From a virus: a stretch of DNA of 64,000 nt. The stretch is from the IMG/VR virus record IMGVR_UViG_3300036831_000050, positions 1 through 64,000 of that record; one strand, written 5' to 3'. The notes beneath the pieces were generated by a model, which saw only the letters and a list, made by a program, of their open reading frames with translations, was not told the origin of the DNA and did not search any database. Both the position numbers and the translations under genes were made by a program. Each line of letters opens with the position of its first letter. The stretch's first letter is position 1. Below are positions 26,138-62,136 of this stretch, one piece after another.

Positions 26138-26154
26138 TGGGGCATGATGCAACA
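26138..26154. promoter_or_regulatory. 17-bp palindromic operator copy (TGGGGCA-TGA-TGCAACA)
   Basis: Member of the repeated intergenic motif family. Confidence 0.55.
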
Positions 26155-26177: not shown

Positions 26178-27218
26178 ATGCCCCAGCAGCAGTGGCAGCC
26201 ACCCGCGCCGCCAGACGAACCCGTGCAGGAAGGTGCGCGTTGGCGCTGGCATAAGCCGCCCAGCGAGGCCGTGGCCACGTGGTTTGGCCAGCAGCACATC
26301 GCAGACGAGCTGGACCATGAGCACTACGTCGGCGGCGTGGTCCTCATTCCCCAGTCGGAGAAGGTGAAGTACACCAAGCCCGACGGCAGCGGCACCATCG
26401 AGCGCCAGGAACAGGTCTTCACGCCGTACGTCCAGATCGGGACGCGCATCGCCTACTTCCACGATCTCGCGGAAGCGCGCAACTTGATTCCTGTCATAGA
26501 GCCAGCCGACGTGCCGCGTGCCACCAACCCCCAGTCGCTCTACTTCAACGCCAACATGGAGGCGGGCCTGTGGTGGCACGTCGTCGCCGGTCGCAACCAG
26601 GGCGACGGCAACCAGCGGTTCCTCTGCGCGACGTGGACCGTGGCGCTCTACAAGCCCGAGAGCTACGCGCGCAAGCTCAACGGCCACAAAGAGATGCCCG
26701 TGCGTCAGGGCCGGGGCACCAAGCAGGTCTGGGGCAGCGCCGACATCAACCAGATCGCCAAGGCTCAGACCGGCGCCATCGGCCGCGCGTTGGGCGTGTG
26801 CGGCATTCTCGTCGTCGGCACGGGTATCGCCACGGCGGAGGACATGCAGGAGTACGTCGGAGCACCGCCCCAGCAGCCCGTGCAGGGCGAGCCGCAGCTT
26901 CCCGTACCCACCGAGGTGCCTGGGGCCGAGGCGCCGCCACTGGACCCGGAGGCCGCGCTGGACCAGCTCAGGGCGCACGCCATGACCCTCCAGGCCCAGA
27001 TGCAGGAGCGCGGCGTGTGGCCGGAGTTCTCGGCCTGGTACTCCGAACGGGCCAAAGAGTCCGGGTGGTCCAGCCTCAACGACGTGCCGCACGATGCACT
27101 GCGCGGCGTCGTCAGTCGCATGGAGCGCATGGTGGCCGAGGCGCCCGCCAGTGTGCCTAACGAGCAAACTCAAGTCGCACCACTAGAGGAGGTGGCGAGT
27201 GAGCCGGTTCAGCAGTGA
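26178..27218 (+). CDS. Putative single-strand annealing (Rad52/Sak-like) recombination protein
   Basis: 'YVQIGTRIAYF ... KAQTGAIGRALGVCGI...GIATAEDM' resembles phage SSAP motifs; first gene of the recombination operon. Confidence 0.5.
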   Translation: MPQQQWQPPAPPDEPVQEGARWRWHKPPSEAVATWFGQQHIADELDHEHYVGGVVLIPQSEKVKYTKPDGSGTIERQEQVFTPYVQIGTRIAYFHDLAEARNLIPVIEPADVPRATNPQSLYFNANMEAGLWWHVVAGRNQGDGNQRFLCATWTVALYKPESYARKLNGHKEMPVRQGRGTKQVWGSADINQIAKAQTGAIGRALGVCGILVVGTGIATAEDMQEYVGAPPQQPVQGEPQLPVPTEVPGAEAPPLDPEAALDQLRAHAMTLQAQMQERGVWPEFSAWYSERAKESGWSSLNDVPHDALRGVVSRMERMVAEAPASVPNEQTQVAPLEEVASEPVQQ

Positions 27219-27780
27219 CTACGACGACGAGTATTTCCCCAACCAGGCCGCGCTCTGGCAGGCCAACGCCAGACGCGCACTGAAGGGGAAGAAGGGTCGC
27301 AAGGCTCTCGCTGAGCTGCGCGACGCACTGCGGGCACTGCCCGAGAAGCGCCTGATCGCTGGCGCGCTGTGCACCGTGGGCGGCCTGGAGCGACCCGACA
27401 TCGCGGAGAAGCTGGCCGAGGAGGAGCGCCGTCATGAGGAGAACCCTCAGTGGGGCAACTGGTATCGCGACGAGGCGACGAGCAAGGTGAAGGAAGAGGG
27501 CGAGGGCGTGTGCGCCATCGGCGCATACCTCTGGCACCGCGAAGTGAAGGCCGGGACCGACCCCGAGGAGGCGTTCGCCAAGCTGCCGACACTGCTCGAC
27601 ATCGACGGTGGTGACTACGAGACCGCGAGGGCGGGCCACGAAGCCGGACTCACCTTCACGCTCGCCTGGCAGCTCGCCTGGCGCAACGACGAGGAGTACG
27701 ACGGCCTGTCACCAGAGGAGCGGTACGAGTCCTTCATGCGCTGGCTCGATGAGGAGCTGGGCGACGCGGTGGCGGCGTGA
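27199..27780 (+). CDS. Hypothetical phage protein
   Basis: GAGGAGG RBS; coupled to neighbours. Confidence 0.65.
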   Translation: MSRFSSDYDDEYFPNQAALWQANARRALKGKKGRKALAELRDALRALPEKRLIAGALCTVGGLERPDIAEKLAEEERRHEENPQWGNWYRDEATSKVKEEGEGVCAIGAYLWHREVKAGTDPEEAFAKLPTLLDIDGGDYETARAGHEAGLTFTLAWQLAWRNDEEYDGLSPEERYESFMRWLDEELGDAVAA

Positions 27781-39155: not shown

Positions 39156-39238
39156 AGCCGTGGCCAGTAGTAGCCGAGCATCATGCCCGCGATGAACGCG
39201 AGCACGCCGACCGCGAAGCACCAGCCGACGGTGCTCAT
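39152..39238 (-). CDS. 28-aa single-TM peptide
   Basis: MSTVGWCFAVGVLAFIAGMMLGYYWPRL; ATGA-coupled to the recombinase stop and to the next gene. Confidence 0.45.
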   Translation of the reverse strand: MSTVGWCFAVGVLAFIAGMMLGYYWPRL

Positions 39239-40257
39239 GCTGCCAGGCCCATGCGCCGAGCGAACTCCTCCGAGGCCGCCCCGAACGCAGAGGACACGTC
39301 ACTGTTCGCGAGCTTGACGTACTCCATGGTCTGCTCGATGCGAGCGTGACCGGCCGCGATCTGCATTTGGACCAGCGGGATGCCCGCAGCGGCCCAGCCA
39401 GTGATGGCAGTGTGACGCAGGCGATGCCAGCGCCACGGTCCCAGGATGCCCAGCGACTCGCGGAAGCTCCGCACGCTGAGCGGTGCGAGCTGCTGATCGC
39501 GCAGCCCGTCACGTGTCAGGGCCAGCCACGGTGAATCGTGGTCCGGCCTTAGCAGCCAACGCAAGTCCAGCCATTCGCGCATGCACTCCCTGGCGTGGGG
39601 GAAGTAGGGCACGGCACGCATCTGCGGCACGCCCGGTCCCTTCTTCGCGGTCCTGACCACCACGTCGGTGTTGTCGTAGTGGAGCGCCGGGATGGTAAGC
39701 GTCATGATCTCGATGCTGCGTAGCCCCTCCTCGATGGCGAGCGCGATCTGTGCCTCCAACTGCACGCGCCGTGCGTGGCGCAGGAGGTGACGGCGCATCG
39801 CCGGAGACTTGCCCTGCACGAACCGCGTGAGCAGGCGAGACCCGCGCCCGTAGGCAGGCAGCGCCGGGTACACCTCAGCCAAGCGGCGCCGCATCTCCGC
39901 GACTTCGCTCTGCTTGTAGGGGTTCGGCTTGCCGTGGCTGGTGCTGCCACGCGGGTTAGGAACAGACTGAAGTTGAAGCGTACGGTCCGTGTCGATGAGA
40001 TCGGCCTCGCTAGCCCAGGTGATGAACGAGCGGATCATGATGCGGTACTTGCGCGTGGTGTTCGGGGACACACCGCGCTTCAGCTCGGCGCCCAGGAACG
40101 TGGTGAAGTCCTGTCGCGTCAGCTCGATGAGCGGGTGGTCCAGTCCGGCCTCGAAACGACGAAGGACGCGGAGCTGTTCGCCGCGCCGGTCGGGACTGAT
40201 GCTGTTCACCTCAAGGTACTCGGCCTCGAAGCGGGAGAGGAGTGTGTCGGTGTCCAT
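39235..40257 (-). CDS. Tyrosine recombinase (XerC/D- or Cre-type, no arm-binding domain)
   Basis: SAM-like N-domain 'GVSPNTTRKY...IRSFITW'. Catalytic set: R (GLRSIE), K, HxxR (HRLRH), GH and Y (TMEY). Confidence 0.9.
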   Translation of the reverse strand: MDTDTLLSRFEAEYLEVNSISPDRRGEQLRVLRRFEAGLDHPLIELTRQDFTTFLGAELKRGVSPNTTRKYRIMIRSFITWASEADLIDTDRTLQLQSVPNPRGSTSHGKPNPYKQSEVAEMRRRLAEVYPALPAYGRGSRLLTRFVQGKSPAMRRHLLRHARRVQLEAQIALAIEEGLRSIEIMTLTIPALHYDNTDVVVRTAKKGPGVPQMRAVPYFPHARECMREWLDLRWLLRPDHDSPWLALTRDGLRDQQLAPLSVRSFRESLGILGPWRWHRLRHTAITGWAAAGIPLVQMQIAAGHARIEQTMEYVKLANSDVSSAFGAASEEFARRMGLAA

Positions 40258-46499: not shown

Positions 46500-46516
46500 T
46501 GTAGCAGCGTGCCACA
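46500..46516. promoter_or_regulatory. 17-bp operator copy (TGTAGCA-GCG-TGCCACA) overlapping a leftward extended -10 (TGCTACACT)
   Basis: Intergenic upstream of ruvB; embedded in a longer inverted repeat CGGAGAGTGT...ACACTCTCCG. Confidence 0.65.
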
Positions 46517-50668: not shown

Positions 50669-50704
50669 TGTAGCACGGTGCCACAGGTGTGGCATCGCGC
50701 ATCA
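50669..50704. promoter_or_regulatory. Tandem 17-bp operator copies (TGTAGCA-CGG-TGCCACA; TGTGGCA-TCG-CGCATCA) overlapping a leftward extended -10
   Basis: Intergenic upstream of the MoxR gene. Confidence 0.65.
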
Positions 50705-56354: not shown

Positions 56355-56831
56355 CGTGGGAAGTCCACGCGCGGACGTGCCGCCCCCCCCTTCCGCGTGG
56401 GAGGACGGGTGGCGCGCCCGAACCCCTCACCTGACTCTCTCCCGCAGTAGACCCCCTCTCGCACCGCTTACGAACTGTGTCGAGTTCTGCGGTAACAGTC
56501 CAACTGCCGTTCACTCCTAGCCAGCCCCCCAGGCCGACGGCCCGCGAGCGCCCCCCATCGGGTCCACCAGGGGACGGTCGGCGCCAATTCCTGCACAGTG
56601 CATACTCGCGGGGCGACACTGCGGCTCCCACGGTGATACTGTGCACCCGCCTAGGGTTACCTCTCCCGCTTGCCCCCTCGTCCGCCTTGCTCAGGGTCGC
56701 ACCCTGTGTCGGGCCACCTGGGGCCTCGCGGTGAAGTGGCTCTAGGCTACGGCGCCCCCACCGGGGCTTCCCCGTAGAGGGTGGGCGGCTTCTGATCGGC
56801 AGAGTCGCCCCCCTCTGATACTCTCACCCGC

Positions 56832-57050
56832 GTGGCGGACACAGGCATCGTGCGCGAGCTGCTGGGGTGCGAGTGGGGTCGGGCACTCTCCACACCCGAC
56901 GATACTGTGCCCTGCGAGGAGCGCGCCGTCGGCTACGTGGTCGTTCACGACGGCGATGCGGAGGCCGCCTTCAAGCTGTGCCAGCGCCACCACGACCGCC
57001 TCTCCCAGGAGACCACCCCGAGGGAGGTGACCGATGGCGCCCCCGCTTGA
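56832..57050 (+). CDS. Small Cys/His protein
   Basis: Follows extended -10 TGATACTCT; probably leaderless. Confidence 0.5.
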   Translation: MADTGIVRELLGCEWGRALSTPDDTVPCEERAVGYVVVHDGDAEAAFKLCQRHHDRLSQETTPREVTDGAPA

Positions 57051-58762: not shown

Positions 58763-58882
58763 ACTCACCGCCGTCAACGACGAGAGGAGGCGCACCCACG
58801 CCCAACCTGCGCGGGCTTCCAGTAATCGGAGCTAGTGCGAACGCGCCCGCTGGACAGTGACCATACGAACTAGGAGGCTTCA

Positions 58883-59437
58883 GTGAAGCGTCTGATTCTC
58901 GCGGCGAGCTGTGTGCTCGCCGTTTCTGCGCCCGCCGCTCTGGCCGCAACGCCGACGCGGGCACACACCACGAAGTACACCCACCTCTACCGAGAGGTTG
59001 CCCGGAAGTTCGGCAAGCGGACCCCTGGCCGCAACATCGTCAACGATGGCGTGTCCTCTGGGCGCGGCGCCACCGACGCTGAGGTGGCCAAGAGCATCAC
59101 GGTGCTGGAGCGCATGCTGGCTCCGCCCCCGGTGCCAAGCTCGGTGCCAAGTGGCAACCCGGCTGGCACCACCAGTTACGGGTCAACTTCCGTCAGCTCG
59201 TACAGCTCGGCGGGCGCGTCGGGAGTCCCGGCGTGTGCATCGGAGTCGGGGACGAACTACTCGACTGGCTCGGCCAATACCAACGCCTCGTCTGGCGCCA
59301 CCGGCCGCTACCAGATCATTCCGTCCACGGCTGCGGCCTATGGCTGCGATCTCTCGACACCGGCAGGGCAGGACTCCTGCGCTCAGGCCATCTACGCCCA
59401 CCAGGGCGCTGGTGCCTGGGTGGGTTGCGGGGGCTAG
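58883..59437 (+). CDS. Secreted resuscitation-promoting-factor (Rpf)-type lytic transglycosylase
   Basis: Sec signal MKRLILAASCVLAVSAPAALA and Ser/Pro linker. Rpf-like domain 'CASESGTNY...GATGRYQIIPST...YG...QD..A..IYAHQGAGAWVGC' with catalytic Glu. Confidence 0.8.
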   Translation: MKRLILAASCVLAVSAPAALAATPTRAHTTKYTHLYREVARKFGKRTPGRNIVNDGVSSGRGATDAEVAKSITVLERMLAPPPVPSSVPSGNPAGTTSYGSTSVSSYSSAGASGVPACASESGTNYSTGSANTNASSGATGRYQIIPSTAAAYGCDLSTPAGQDSCAQAIYAHQGAGAWVGCGG

Positions 59438-59448
59438 GACGCGGAGCT

Positions 59449-59479
59449 GGGGTTTCCACTCGATTCGGGTGGAAACCCC
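59449..59479 (+). terminator. Hairpin after the Rpf gene
   Basis: GGGGTTTCCAC pairs with GTGGAAACCCC. Confidence 0.6.
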
Positions 59480-59507
59480 GCACCCCGCAAAGAGCGACAA
59501 TCTGTGG

Positions 59508-59524
59508 TGTCGCAGGCTGCCACA
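59508..59524. promoter_or_regulatory. 17-bp operator copy (TGTCGCA-GGC-TGCCACA) just upstream of extended -10 TGATACCGT
   Basis: Intergenic, upstream of the tRNA-like element. Confidence 0.6.
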
Positions 59525-59549
59525 GTTCTGATACCGTCCCCGCCTCAGG

Positions 59550-59614
59550 CGCGGGTGCTGGCTCTGACGGGCCTCAACAGCCCAGAGGACGAGGTTCGAT
59601 TCCTCGGCCCGCTA
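59550..59614 (+). tRNA. Atypical D-armless tRNA-like RNA, initiator-like, anticodon CAA
   Basis: Acceptor CGCGGGT/GCCCGCT-A, T-arm CGAGG-TTCGATT-CCTCG, anticodon arm GGGC-CTCAACA-GCCC; no D stem and no encoded CCA. Confidence 0.6.
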
Positions 59615-59615
59615 T

Positions 59616-60002
59616 GTGGACGACGAACTGGACAGGGCCATCGACGCCGCCTTCAGCGCGGACCGACCCCTCGGCAAGCTGGAGCGCGAGCTGCGCGACC
59701 TGATCGACCTTACACAGATGGCCACCGCCGACGTGCCGAGTCGCATACGCTTGACCGTGATGTGCCCACCGGGCATGGCCGTGCTGGTGCCCTACGAGGA
59801 GGACGGCGGCGTGCCGCTGCTGGAGCGCACCGTAGGCGACGGCGGCCCGAAGGAAGTGCTCATGCACCCCGACGACTGGGAGCGCATTGTCGCCACCGTG
59901 CCTGACATGTCAGATTCGCCCTTCAAGGACCGGGCGTCGTTTTACCAGGGCATTCCTGTCATCAAAGATCAACCCAACAAACCAACTGGAGGTGAGCAGT
60001 AA
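59616..60002 (+). CDS. Hypothetical protein
   Basis: Typical codon usage, coupled to the next gene. Confidence 0.55.
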   Translation: MDDELDRAIDAAFSADRPLGKLERELRDLIDLTQMATADVPSRIRLTVMCPPGMAVLVPYEEDGGVPLLERTVGDGGPKEVLMHPDDWERIVATVPDMSDSPFKDRASFYQGIPVIKDQPNKPTGGEQ

Positions 60003-60319
60003 TGTGGGAGTTCACGCAGGTCGAAGGCTCTGGCCCGCCCATGGACATCGAGGCCAAGACCGATGACAGCAACGCCGAGCTGGCGGAGCTGAGGGACCTG
60101 TTCAACGAGGGCGAGTTCGAGCCGGGTGACTGGAAGACGGTCGCCAACTTCGACGCCGCCACGGCGGGCGAAGACGGTCTGACGATGTTCGTCATTCCCG
60201 GCGACGAGGCCGGGGAAATCTCGGACTACTGGGACGAGCTGGGAGCGTTCCTGCACGAATGCAACCAGAAGGCCATGGCCGCCGCCGAGGCCGAGGCCGA
60301 GAAGGCGGCATCGGCATGA
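60002..60319 (+). CDS. Highly acidic small protein
   Basis: GGAGG RBS; strongly D/E-rich. Confidence 0.65.
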   Translation: MWEFTQVEGSGPPMDIEAKTDDSNAELAELRDLFNEGEFEPGDWKTVANFDAATAGEDGLTMFVIPGDEAGEISDYWDELGAFLHECNQKAMAAAEAEAEKAASA

Positions 60320-60495
60320 AGTACGTCGGCATTGTCATACAGGGCATGGTGCTCGACAGCGCCGCTGTCACGGTGGGCGAGGACTCGCAGGCCGTCCTCC
60401 AGTCCGCCGAGGGCGAAGCACACAGCCGCAACCAGAAGATCGAGATGGAGGAGGGCTACACGGCAATCGTCCTGTCACTGCCCGACGAGTCATGA
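60316..60495 (+). CDS. Small hypothetical protein
   Basis: ATGA-coupled. Confidence 0.5.
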   Translation: MKYVGIVIQGMVLDSAAVTVGEDSQAVLQSAEGEAHSRNQKIEMEEGYTAIVLSLPDES

Positions 60496-62119: not shown

Positions 62120-62136
62120 TGTTGCAGGCTGCCACA
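62120..62136. promoter_or_regulatory. 17-bp operator copy (TGTTGCA-GGC-TGCCACA)
   Basis: Intergenic, immediately after the terminator. Confidence 0.6.

What the first reader, a model, noticed from the sequence alone, without database searches (positions are those of the whole stretch)
59550..59614. D-armless, initiator-like tRNA mimic with a CAA anticodon
Seen: a 65-nt element with a canonical T-arm, an acceptor stem with a 1:72 mismatch (C:T) and discriminator A, GGG/CCC in the anticodon stem, loop CT-CAA-CA, and an extra CTCT/AGAG helix in place of a D-arm. It has its own extended -10 and 17-bp operator. Known: the 1:72 mismatch and three G:C anticodon-stem pairs mark bacterial tRNA-fMet, and CAA would pair with UUG. 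Inference: a tRNA-fMet-derived RNA acting as a decoy for anticodon nucleases or uncharged-tRNA sensors, or an unusual UUG reader. Intact pairing of both acceptor strands argues against a simple attP remnant.
Basis: partly seen in the sequence, partly recalled or inferred. Interest (0 to 1): 0.7.

Follow-up and report, generated by a model that had tools for sequence, protein, structure and literature searches.

The report
Truncated initiator-like tRNA relic in phage
An uncultured soil phage carries a tRNA-shaped sequence that has lost one arm and probably cannot read codons; it sits between a likely promoter and a gene with no ribosome-binding site, so it may mark where the message is cut, or it may be a dead tRNA gene.

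Summary
Window 59550-59614 (+) folds into an acceptor stem (C1xT72 mismatch, A73), a GGGC/GCCC hairpin with loop CTCAACA, and a perfect T-arm, with no D-arm.

It is tRNA-derived, not chance:
- A structural descriptor hit 2 times in 300 simulated genomes.
- It aligns to the E. coli initiator tRNA better than 500 of 500 shuffles, with an 11-nt gap over the 5' D-arm.

It fails every tRNA caller. My own tRNA model ranks it top in the window, but only at 15 bits, E about 0.1.

It is a singleton. It is absent from the two related phage records, and pattern scans of viral, metagenome and genome collections found no homologue. Conservation therefore cannot be tested.

Context:
- a recurring 17-bp palindrome and a TGATACCGT box lie just upstream;
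- the SD-less GTG of an ORFan starts 1 nt after the discriminator;
- the phage has other SD-less genes set close behind promoter-like boxes.

Best reading (0.4): a non-decoding initiator-tRNA relic in an mRNA leader, used as an RNase P/Z cut site. A neutral pseudogene is nearly as likely. The decoy and UUG-reader ideas have no support. No RNA data exist.

The parts
58883..59437 (+). Upstream gene P0002, a secreted Rpf-like transglycosylase (context only)
   Evidence: Coding by GC3 frame plot. Pfam PF06737 E 1.8e-5, 25.7 bits, just under the 27-bit cut-off.
59449..59479 (+). Strong hairpin after P0002, terminator-like but with no T-run. It is extended by outer arms 59422-59432 / 59476-59486.
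   Evidence: Inverted repeats I1 (15-nt arms, 93%) and I2. The consensus terminator scan, which requires a T-run, does not call it.
59508..59524 (.). 17-bp near-palindrome TGTCGCAGGCTGCCACA, an operator-like site
   Evidence: Four sites match TGTNGCANNNTGCNACA exactly: 46500, 50669, 59508 and 62120. Three more sites match with one mismatch. All lie between my gene calls.
59529..59537 (+). TGATACCGT, a candidate extended -10 (inferred)
   Evidence: TGATACTCT lies 7 nt before the SD-less GTG at 56832, and TGGTATGAG follows the operator copy at 62120. The sigma-70 scan does not call it.
59550..59614 (+). tRNA-shaped element without a D-arm. Acceptor 59550-56 / 59607-13, hairpin 59562-87 with loop CTCAACA, T-arm 59590-606, discriminator A59614.
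59616..60002 (+). ORFan P0002's downstream neighbour P0001 (128 aa). It starts with GTG 1 nt after the discriminator and has no Shine-Dalgarno in the 25 nt upstream.
   Evidence: GC3 0.81-0.90 in this frame. The frame is closed by TGA at 59565-67, and GTG 59616 is the first start after it. The only match among 5.8 billion proteins is itself.

Best explanation
The element descends from an initiator-type (tRNA-fMet-like) tRNA gene carried by the phage. A deletion of about 10 nt removed the 5' half of the D-arm. The anticodon loop now reads CUCAACA (CAA, with C at position 37). It most likely no longer decodes.

It sits directly after an operator-like palindrome and a TGATAC-type -10 box. It ends 1 nt before the SD-less GTG of the ORFan at 59616. 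It would therefore be transcribed as the 5' leader of that operon.

The acceptor/T-arm half is the part that RNase P, RNase Z and the CCA-adding enzyme recognise (established knowledge, recalled). That half is intact while the other half is degenerate. I therefore propose that the host enzymes cut the tRNA shape out, leaving an mRNA with a 1-nt leader. That mRNA would be effectively leaderless, like other first genes of this phage.

Shown: tRNA ancestry, the missing D-arm, failure of tRNA callers, the layout, the recurring palindrome, and SD-less genes close behind promoter-like boxes elsewhere in the genome.

Inferred: transcription from this promoter, cleavage, and leaderless translation.
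For: Ancestry:
- Aligned to E. coli metZ it scores 51, against shuffles of 30 +/- 4.8. None of 500 shuffles reach it, and an 11-nt gap lies over GTGGAGCAGCC of the D-arm (alignment).
- The structural descriptor hit 2 times in 300 simulated genomes.
- It is the top hit of the window for my tRNA model.
- Its T-arm is identical to that of mycobacteriophage Asterius tRNA-Phe.

The top half is intact: T-stem 5 of 5 pairs, T-loop TTCGATT, acceptor 6 of 7 pairs.

Layout:
- GTG 59616 follows A59614 by 1 nt.
- There is no purine-rich SD in the 25 nt upstream, whereas neighbouring genes have GGAGG-type sites, for example before 58883, 60002 and 62933.

Likely regulated promoter:
- The palindrome TGTNGCANNNTGCNACA has 4 exact and 3 one-mismatch sites, all intergenic.
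- The copy at 62120 is followed by the same kind of TG-N-TA box, then a normal SD-bearing leader.

SD-less genes close behind promoter-like boxes:
- TGATACTCT lies 7 nt before GTG 56832.
- GGCGTANATTA lies 4-7 nt before starts at record positions 67900, 77306, 80272 and 80845.
Against: - There are no RNA data. No listed sequencing run is RNA.
- There is one sequence only. The element is in 0 of 2 related phage records, so selection on the stems cannot be shown.
- The fold is no more stable than shuffles (z -0.75).
- With the first 50 nt of the ORF attached, the minimum-energy fold pairs the 3' acceptor strand with coding sequence instead (z +1.03, MFE frequency 0.011).
- The consensus promoter scan finds nothing.
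- Cutting after the discriminator leaves U-GUG, not GUG, at the 5' end.
- A recently broken tRNA gene would look the same.
Confidence: 0.4

Rival explanations
1. Neutral pseudogene. A phage tRNA gene was inactivated by the D-arm deletion and anticodon-loop changes. It is not yet eroded and has no role. The downstream gene is translated by some SD-independent route unrelated to it.
For: - It fails ARAGORN in the window and in the whole record.
- None of 8 relaxed or mitochondrial option sets calls it in this register.
- No Rfam tRNA match.
- It lies in a variable block (about 56.0-62.9 kb) with no counterpart in the relatives.
- It is a singleton in all collection scans.
- The fold is not unusually stable and is lost in context.
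- tRNA fragments and pseudo-tRNAs tied to mobile elements are common (PMC9897764, abstract and outline read).
Against: - All damage lies in the D/anticodon half. The 12-bp acceptor/T-arm stack and the T-loop are untouched.
- It fills exactly the space between a likely promoter and an SD-less start codon, ending 1 nt before it.
Confidence: 0.33
2. Trans-acting tRNA mimic. The released RNA acts as a decoy for a tRNA-cleaving defence nuclease, or for a factor that binds initiator or uncharged tRNA.
For: - Initiator-like marks are kept: C1 mismatch, A73, GGG/CCC.
- It stands behind an operator-like site, so it could be timed.
- The search listings name phage escape from the PARIS system in connection with tRNA (PMC11455837, listing only).
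Against: - No nuclease, tRNA repair or tRNA-related gene was found among the 20 window proteins I scanned with Pfam.
- The neighbours are ORFans.
- There are no relatives and no expression data.
- An anticodon-nuclease decoy would be expected to copy the target's anticodon loop. This loop (CAA with C37) matches no tRNA that I compared it with.
Confidence: 0.1
3. Recombination-site remnant. It is an attP-type copy of a host tRNA 3' part, with a 5' acceptor strand that matches by chance.
For: - The 3' two-thirds looks the most tRNA-like.
- In the simulations, 0.15 of 1.36 chance T-arms per genome (about 11%) also had a 6-pair acceptor partner.
- The relative G001 starts inside a tRNA 3' end and carries an integrase cassette at its other end.
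Against: - The only tyrosine integrase found in the window is at 39235-40257, 19 kb away.
- No recombinase was found among the neighbours scanned.
- No tRNA in the representative genomes of 185,579 species has this T-arm plus 3' acceptor. The scan gave 2 hits, neither a tRNA.
- The 5' end CGCGGG is the initiator hexamer, not a random complement.
Confidence: 0.05
4. Working D-armless tRNA that reads UUG, as an elongator or as an initiator.
For: - The loop has T33 and a CAA triplet in a 7-nt loop. The acceptor and T-arm are intact.
- TTG makes up 139 of 1744 Leu codons (8%) in 88 called genes.
- Phage initiator-like tRNAs with reduced D-arms exist: L016 and L027.
Against: - There is C at position 37 and no D-stem at all.
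- The fifth anticodon-stem pair is a C.A mismatch.
- ARAGORN's mitochondrial modes do not call it as such.
- I know of no bacterial or phage D-armless decoder (recall).
- The reduced-D-arm phage tRNAs found here keep a 3-bp D-stem and CAT.
Confidence: 0.02
5. Chance look-alike with no tRNA ancestry.
For: - Model-based scores are weak: 15.0 bits, E about 0.11; nhmmer E 0.14.
- The fold energy is ordinary.
- A scan of very many windows will turn up some chance hits at 0.007 per genome.
Against: - None of 500 shuffles reach its alignment score to E. coli metZ.
- blastn against phage tRNA-Phe gave E 0.01 in a 2.3-Gb database.
- It lies in one of the few non-coding gaps, on the coding strand of its neighbours.
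Confidence: 0.03

Closest known systems
Bacterial initiator tRNA (E. coli metZ, NC_000913.3 2947387-2947463; fetched)
   Same: The 5' end CGCGGG, an unpaired 1:72 position, A73, GGG/CCC in the anticodon stem, a loop starting CTCA, and the T-arm layout.
   Different: No D-arm: an 11-nt gap over GTGGAGCAGCC. CAA instead of CAT. C37 instead of A37. An extra C-G pair closes the loop. C1xT72 instead of C1xA72. No encoded CCA.
Short initiator-like tRNA-Met genes in phage tRNA arrays found here (L016:13955-14024, 70 nt; L027:2117-2189)
   Same: CGCGGGT start, mismatched 1:72, TTCGATT T-loop and a shortened D region. L016 was the best-scoring of 59 tRNAs compared (76.0). It was found with a pattern taken from the element, so that score is biased upwards.
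   Different: They keep a 3-bp D-stem and a CAT anticodon with A37. They lie in arrays of other tRNAs. ARAGORN calls them, L016 by default and L027 with -ps. The element has none of these properties.
tRNA gene fragments and pseudo-tRNAs linked to mobile elements (van der Gulik et al. 2023, PMC9897764; abstract and outline read)
   Same: A partial, non-canonical tRNA sequence in mobile DNA that should not be counted as a tRNA gene.
   Different: Those fragments are end pieces made by integration. This element has both acceptor strands and an internal deletion, and there is no integrase beside it.
mascRNA/menRNA tRNA-like RNAs (Rfam RF01684)
   Same: A tRNA-like shape with a good acceptor/T-arm half and a poor lower half. 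In its own system it is cut out by RNase P and RNase Z (recalled, not tested). It is the only tRNA-like Rfam family to match.
   Different: 15.7 bits against a gathering score of 42.5, E 2.2: not a member. That family is from vertebrate nuclear long non-coding RNAs.
[quoted passage not shown] 2022, J Biochem 171:459). I saw only its citation, as reference 25 of PMC10767902; the lead came from earlier finding e1-071051.
   Same: A tRNA-like sequence that is part of an mRNA tied to leaderless translation.
   Different: I have not read the paper. By its title the tRNA-like part lies inside the mRNA, whereas here it precedes the start codon.
tRNA punctuation of animal mitochondrial transcripts, and D-armless mitochondrial tRNAs (recalled knowledge, no call)
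   Same: A tRNA shape that abuts a start codon with no leader. Loss of the D-arm with a longer anticodon helix.
   Different: A bacterial virus. ARAGORN's mitochondrial modes do not call it in this register. There is no evidence of cleavage.

Membership tests
Canonical tRNA (Rfam RF00005 / ARAGORN) | Recognised by tRNA finders | tested here: not met
   - ARAGORN finds 0 genes in the window and in the record.
- None of 8 option sets calls it in this register.
- No RF00005 match at E<=10 among 4227 families.
- In one search the first look passed no candidate, so the model did not score it there.
- My own tRNA model gives 15.0 bits, E about 0.11.
Canonical tRNA (Rfam RF00005 / ARAGORN) | D-arm (stem plus loop with GG) | tested here: not met
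   Only 12 nt (59557-59568) lie between the acceptor and the anticodon stem, and no D-stem can form. Against metZ there is an 11-nt gap. A TGG remains at 59559-61.
Canonical tRNA (Rfam RF00005 / ARAGORN) | 7-bp acceptor stacked on a 5-bp T-stem with a TTCRANY loop | tested here: met
   Acceptor 6 of 7 pairs. T-stem 5 of 5 pairs. Loop TTCGATT. The 3' acceptor strand directly abuts the T-stem.
Canonical tRNA (Rfam RF00005 / ARAGORN) | 7-nt anticodon loop with U33 and a purine at 37 (rule recalled) | tested here: not met
   The loop is CTCAACA: T33 is present, but position 37 is C.
Bacterial initiator tRNA (defining marks recalled from the literature) | Unpaired 1:72 | tested here: met
   C59550 lies opposite T59613. 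E. coli metZ has C opposite A.
Bacterial initiator tRNA (defining marks recalled from the literature) | Three consecutive G-C pairs at the foot of the anticodon stem | tested here: inconclusive
   GGG/CCC is present, but an extra C-G pair closes the loop, so the register is shifted by one.
Bacterial initiator tRNA (defining marks recalled from the literature) | CAU anticodon | tested here: not met
   CAA.
D-armless mitochondrial-type tRNA | Called by ARAGORN's mitochondrial modes | tested here: not met
   The -mt, -mtx and -mtmam modes find nothing. With -mt -ps it calls an 'mtRNA-Ser(cga)' at 59562-59639, which is a different register.
mascRNA-menRNA (RF01684) | Score at or above the gathering threshold | tested here: not met
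   15.7 bits against 42.5.
Phage attP core in a tRNA gene | Lies beside the integrase gene | tested here: not met
   The integrase (PF00589, E 1e-14) is at 39235-40257, 19 kb away. No recombinase was found among the neighbours scanned.
Phage attP core in a tRNA gene | Identical to the 3' part of a host tRNA gene | tested here: inconclusive
   The 22-nt T-arm plus acceptor pattern found 2 stretches in the representative genomes of 185,579 species, neither a tRNA. The true host is unknown and may not be held.
tRNA-punctuated, processing-made leaderless mRNA | Start codon directly after the tRNA 3' end, with no SD | tested here: met
   GTG 59616 is 1 nt after A59614, and there is no SD in the 25 nt upstream.
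tRNA-punctuated, processing-made leaderless mRNA | Cleavage at the tRNA ends in vivo | not testable with these tools
   No RNA run holds the stretch.

The most novel reading that the evidence does not exclude
The phage keeps a cut-down initiator tRNA with two jobs, both under the control of its own repressor. First, host RNase P and RNase Z cut it out, which creates the leaderless message of the next operon. Second, the released D-armless RNA of about 65 nt, CCA-tailed and initiator-like, acts in trans. It could soak up a factor or a defence nuclease that recognises initiator tRNA.
Probability: 0.1. Interest if true: 0.75.

Novelty: new variant of a known kind. Interest (0 to 1): 0.4.

Why it matters
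If the tRNA shape is cut out to make a leaderless message, this would be a bacterial-virus counterpart of mitochondrial tRNA punctuation. It would also show how a dead tRNA gene can be kept for its shape alone. That matters for annotating phage genomes, where such elements are invisible to tRNA finders. It also matters for understanding leaderless translation in actinobacteria.

If it is only a pseudogene, it is an ordinary relic. Its main value is then as a warning that intact stems in a single sequence prove nothing.

Tried and rejected
Searches for relatives that led nowhere:
- blastn of 58800-60400 and tblastn of a 642-aa virion-region protein against 50,697 phage records found no match.
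- An exact 25-mer found nothing in viral contigs.
- P0001 and P0002 found no confirmed relative in viral contigs. 20 and 78 stretches matched a peptide pattern, and none was confirmed.
- P0001 against 5.8 billion proteins found only itself.
- The protein atlas gave no usable hit for P0001.
- The two related phage records, found through the capsid protein, lack P0001, P0002 and the element.

The metagenome pattern scan gave 14 stretches, none with an interior like the element:
- Five are one identical marine sequence lying inside stop-free frames of 221-675 aa.
- One overlaps a tRNA-Ser and one lies inside a tRNA-Met.
- L018 does not form a T-stem.
- The rest are tRNA-like sequences with D-arms or other layouts.

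Sequencing runs:
- No RNA holder is listed.
- Laying contigs of three soil runs gave only fragmentary cover. The bin 59510-59643 had next to none, even in the likely source run, so nothing can be said about the element there.
- One run (X3) holds pieces about 88-90% like the neighbouring genes, but I could not retrieve its version of the spacer.

Other checks:
- The consensus promoter/terminator scan found none.
- The literature searches listed no paper that, by title or abstract start, describes a D-armless tRNA-like RNA in a bacteriophage. I read none of those papers in full.
- Supplementary files were not consulted.

Rejected readings:
- Coding sequence. The P0001 frame is closed by TGA at 59565-67 and has no start before 59616.
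- Minus-strand tRNA. The T-loop is canonical only on the + strand.

Full report
What is there. The window is the first 64 kb of an 82,353-bp virus record from soil metagenomes. It is about 65% G+C and has the gene layout of a tailed actinobacteriophage. That layout includes a 2075-aa tape-measure-sized ORF, a DnaB-like helicase, a RuvB-like ATPase, a sigma factor and a tyrosine integrase at 39235-40257. Alone, they fold into a 7-position acceptor stem (C1xT72, five G-C pairs, one T.G), a CTCT/AGAG plus GGGC/GCCC hairpin with loop CTCAACA, and a perfect T-arm CGAGG-TTCGATT-CCTCG that abuts the 3' acceptor strand. The discriminator is A.

Is it more than chance? The evidence is mixed but sufficient.

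Against:
- The fold energy is ordinary (z -0.75).
- In a 121-nt context the predicted fold is a different one (z +1.03).
- ARAGORN finds no tRNA in the window or the whole record.
- None of 8 relaxed or mitochondrial option sets calls it in this register.
- Rfam gives no tRNA match, only a sub-threshold mascRNA-menRNA match of 15.7 bits against a gathering score of 42.5.
- A tRNA covariance model that I built from 47 phage tRNAs ranks it first of 27 weak hits in the window, but at 15.0 bits, E about 0.11.
- Sequence-only profiles give E 0.14 and 0.18.

For:
- A generous structural descriptor hit 2 times in 300 simulated genomes, against one real hit.
- blastn finds mycobacteriophage tRNA-Phe genes with the same T-arm, 85% over 40 nt, E 0.01.
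- A global alignment to the E. coli initiator tRNA metZ, a reference not chosen through the element, scores 51. Shuffles give 30 +/- 4.8, and none of 500 reach it. A single 11-nt gap falls over the 5' half of the D-arm.
- It lies in one of the few non-coding gaps, on the same strand as its neighbours.

I conclude that it descends from a tRNA, probably of initiator type. I give chance about 3%.

Which tRNA. The initiator marks are the CGCGGG start, the unpaired 1:72 position, A73, GGG/CCC in the anticodon stem and a loop that begins CTCA. The anticodon is CAA, not CAT. Position 37 is C, and an extra C-G pair closes the loop. Among 59 ARAGORN-called tRNAs from five loci, the best match was a 70-nt phage tRNA-Met with a reduced D-arm (L016, score 76.0). 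Next came Asterius tRNA-Phe (64.5), tRNA-Trp (56.5) and tRNA-Met (55.0). L016 was found with a pattern taken from the element, so its rank is inflated. The initiator assignment is likely, not certain.

Relatives. There are none for the element.
- The capsid protein finds two related viral records, at 64% and 44% identity.
- tblastx shows the closer one (G001) is colinear with this genome. However, the block from about 56.0 to 62.9 kb has no counterpart scoring 60 bits or more in either record.
- Both records lack P0001, P0002 and any tRNA match.
- Pattern scans of viral contigs, metagenome contigs and representative genomes found no homologue.

Context.
- Upstream, the Rpf-like transglycosylase gene ends at 59437 and is followed by a strong hairpin.
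- Next comes the 17-bp near-palindrome TGTCGCAGGCTGCCACA. The degenerate form TGTNGCANNNTGCNACA occurs at four sites exactly and at three more with one mismatch. All lie between my gene calls, and a 3-mismatch search gave 7 matches against 0.96 expected.
- Four nucleotides after it lies TGATACCGT.
- The operator copy at 62120 is followed by TGGTATGAG and then a normal leader with GGAGGGG before an ATG.
- A near-identical TGATACTCT lies 7 nt before the SD-less GTG at 56832.
- By that spacing, transcription here would start at about 59545-59549, at the 5' end of the tRNA shape.
- The consensus sigma-70 scan does not call a promoter, so this step is an inference.

Downstream, the ORFan P0001 (GC3 0.81-0.90) can only start at GTG 59616. 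That is 1 nt after the discriminator, and there is no SD in the 25 nt before it, while its neighbours have GGAGG-type sites. The phage has other SD-less genes set close behind promoter-like boxes. GGCGTANATTA lies 4-7 nt before start codons at record positions 67900, 77306, 80272 and 80845. This confirms an earlier first-reader note.

How it most likely works. All the damage is in the D/anticodon half. The 12-bp acceptor/T-arm stack and the T-loop are intact, and that is the half read by RNase P, RNase Z and the CCA-adding enzyme (my recall). The element fills exactly the space between a likely regulated promoter and an SD-less start codon. My best reading (0.4) is a non-decoding tRNA relic that serves as a cut-out signal and turns the operon's message into a near-leaderless one. 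A neutral pseudogene (0.33) explains the same sequence with fewer assumptions, and nothing here excludes it. The other readings, each with little or no support, are a decoy (0.1), an att-site remnant (0.05), a real UUG decoder (0.02) and chance (0.03). The att reading is weakened by the 19-kb distance to the integrase and by the lack of any matching tRNA in the representative genomes of 185,579 species.

Comparison with what is known.
- It is not a member of the tRNA family as finders define it, nor of RF01684.
- It resembles initiator tRNA in its marks.
- It resembles mitochondrial D-armless tRNAs in outline.
- It resembles mitochondrial punctuation, and possibly E. coli xtpA, in its position next to a leaderless message. 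For xtpA I saw only a citation.
- Earlier notes of this scan describe armless tRNA shapes, and tRNA genes butted against SD-less starts, in other phages. Those are unchecked AI notes on other DNA and are not evidence here.
- My searches listed no paper describing a D-armless tRNA-like RNA in a bacteriophage. I read only listings, one abstract and outline (PMC9897764) and two passages of PMC10767902.

Verdict. I class it as a new variant of a known kind, with moderate interest. Function is undecidable without RNA data or relatives.

Noticed in passing
window 46500-46516, 50669-50685, 59508-59524, 62120-62136; one-mismatch sites at 26138 and 41204, and at record position 66613 (outside the window): A palindromic operator-like motif, TGTNGCANNNTGCNACA, recurs only between genes on both arms of the genome. 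This suggests one phage regulator controls several promoters.
   Followed up: partly
window 56814-56834; record positions 67900, 77306, 80272, 80845; window 8824 and 62891: Two promoter-like boxes sit a few nt before SD-less start codons: TGATACTCT 7 nt before GTG 56832, and GGCGTANATTA 4-7 nt before four starts. This implies leaderless mRNAs.
   Followed up: partly
G001 (IMGVR_UViG_3300036818_000070): L007 1-42 and record 77.3-80.2 kb: The closest relative's record begins inside a tRNA 3' end (T-arm GCGGG-TTCAATT-CCCGC). At its other end it carries an extra tyrosine-integrase-like ORF of 351 aa and an Xis-like ORF. These lie between homologues of the window's genes 26178-27218 and 27199-27780. 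It is probably an integration module or a prophage junction.
   Followed up: partly
L016:13955-14024 (-); L027:2117-2189 (+) and the same sequence in L022: Phage tRNA arrays hold short initiator-like tRNA-Met genes with a 3-bp D-stem and an unpaired 1:72 position. ARAGORN's default settings miss the L027 copy, which sits in an array of 28 tRNAs.
   Followed up: partly
L029:2031-2088 (-): A 58-nt metagenome sequence has CGCGGGT, a D-arm-like stretch and a T-arm, with apparently no anticodon arm between them.
   Followed up: no
window 58883-59437: A stand-alone secreted Rpf-like transglycosylase gene lies outside the tail and lysis modules. It is absent from both related phage records.
   Followed up: partly
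window 59568-59573 / 59606-59611: CGGGCC can pair with GGCCCG. That fold would compete with both the anticodon stem and the acceptor stem of the tRNA shape.
   Followed up: no
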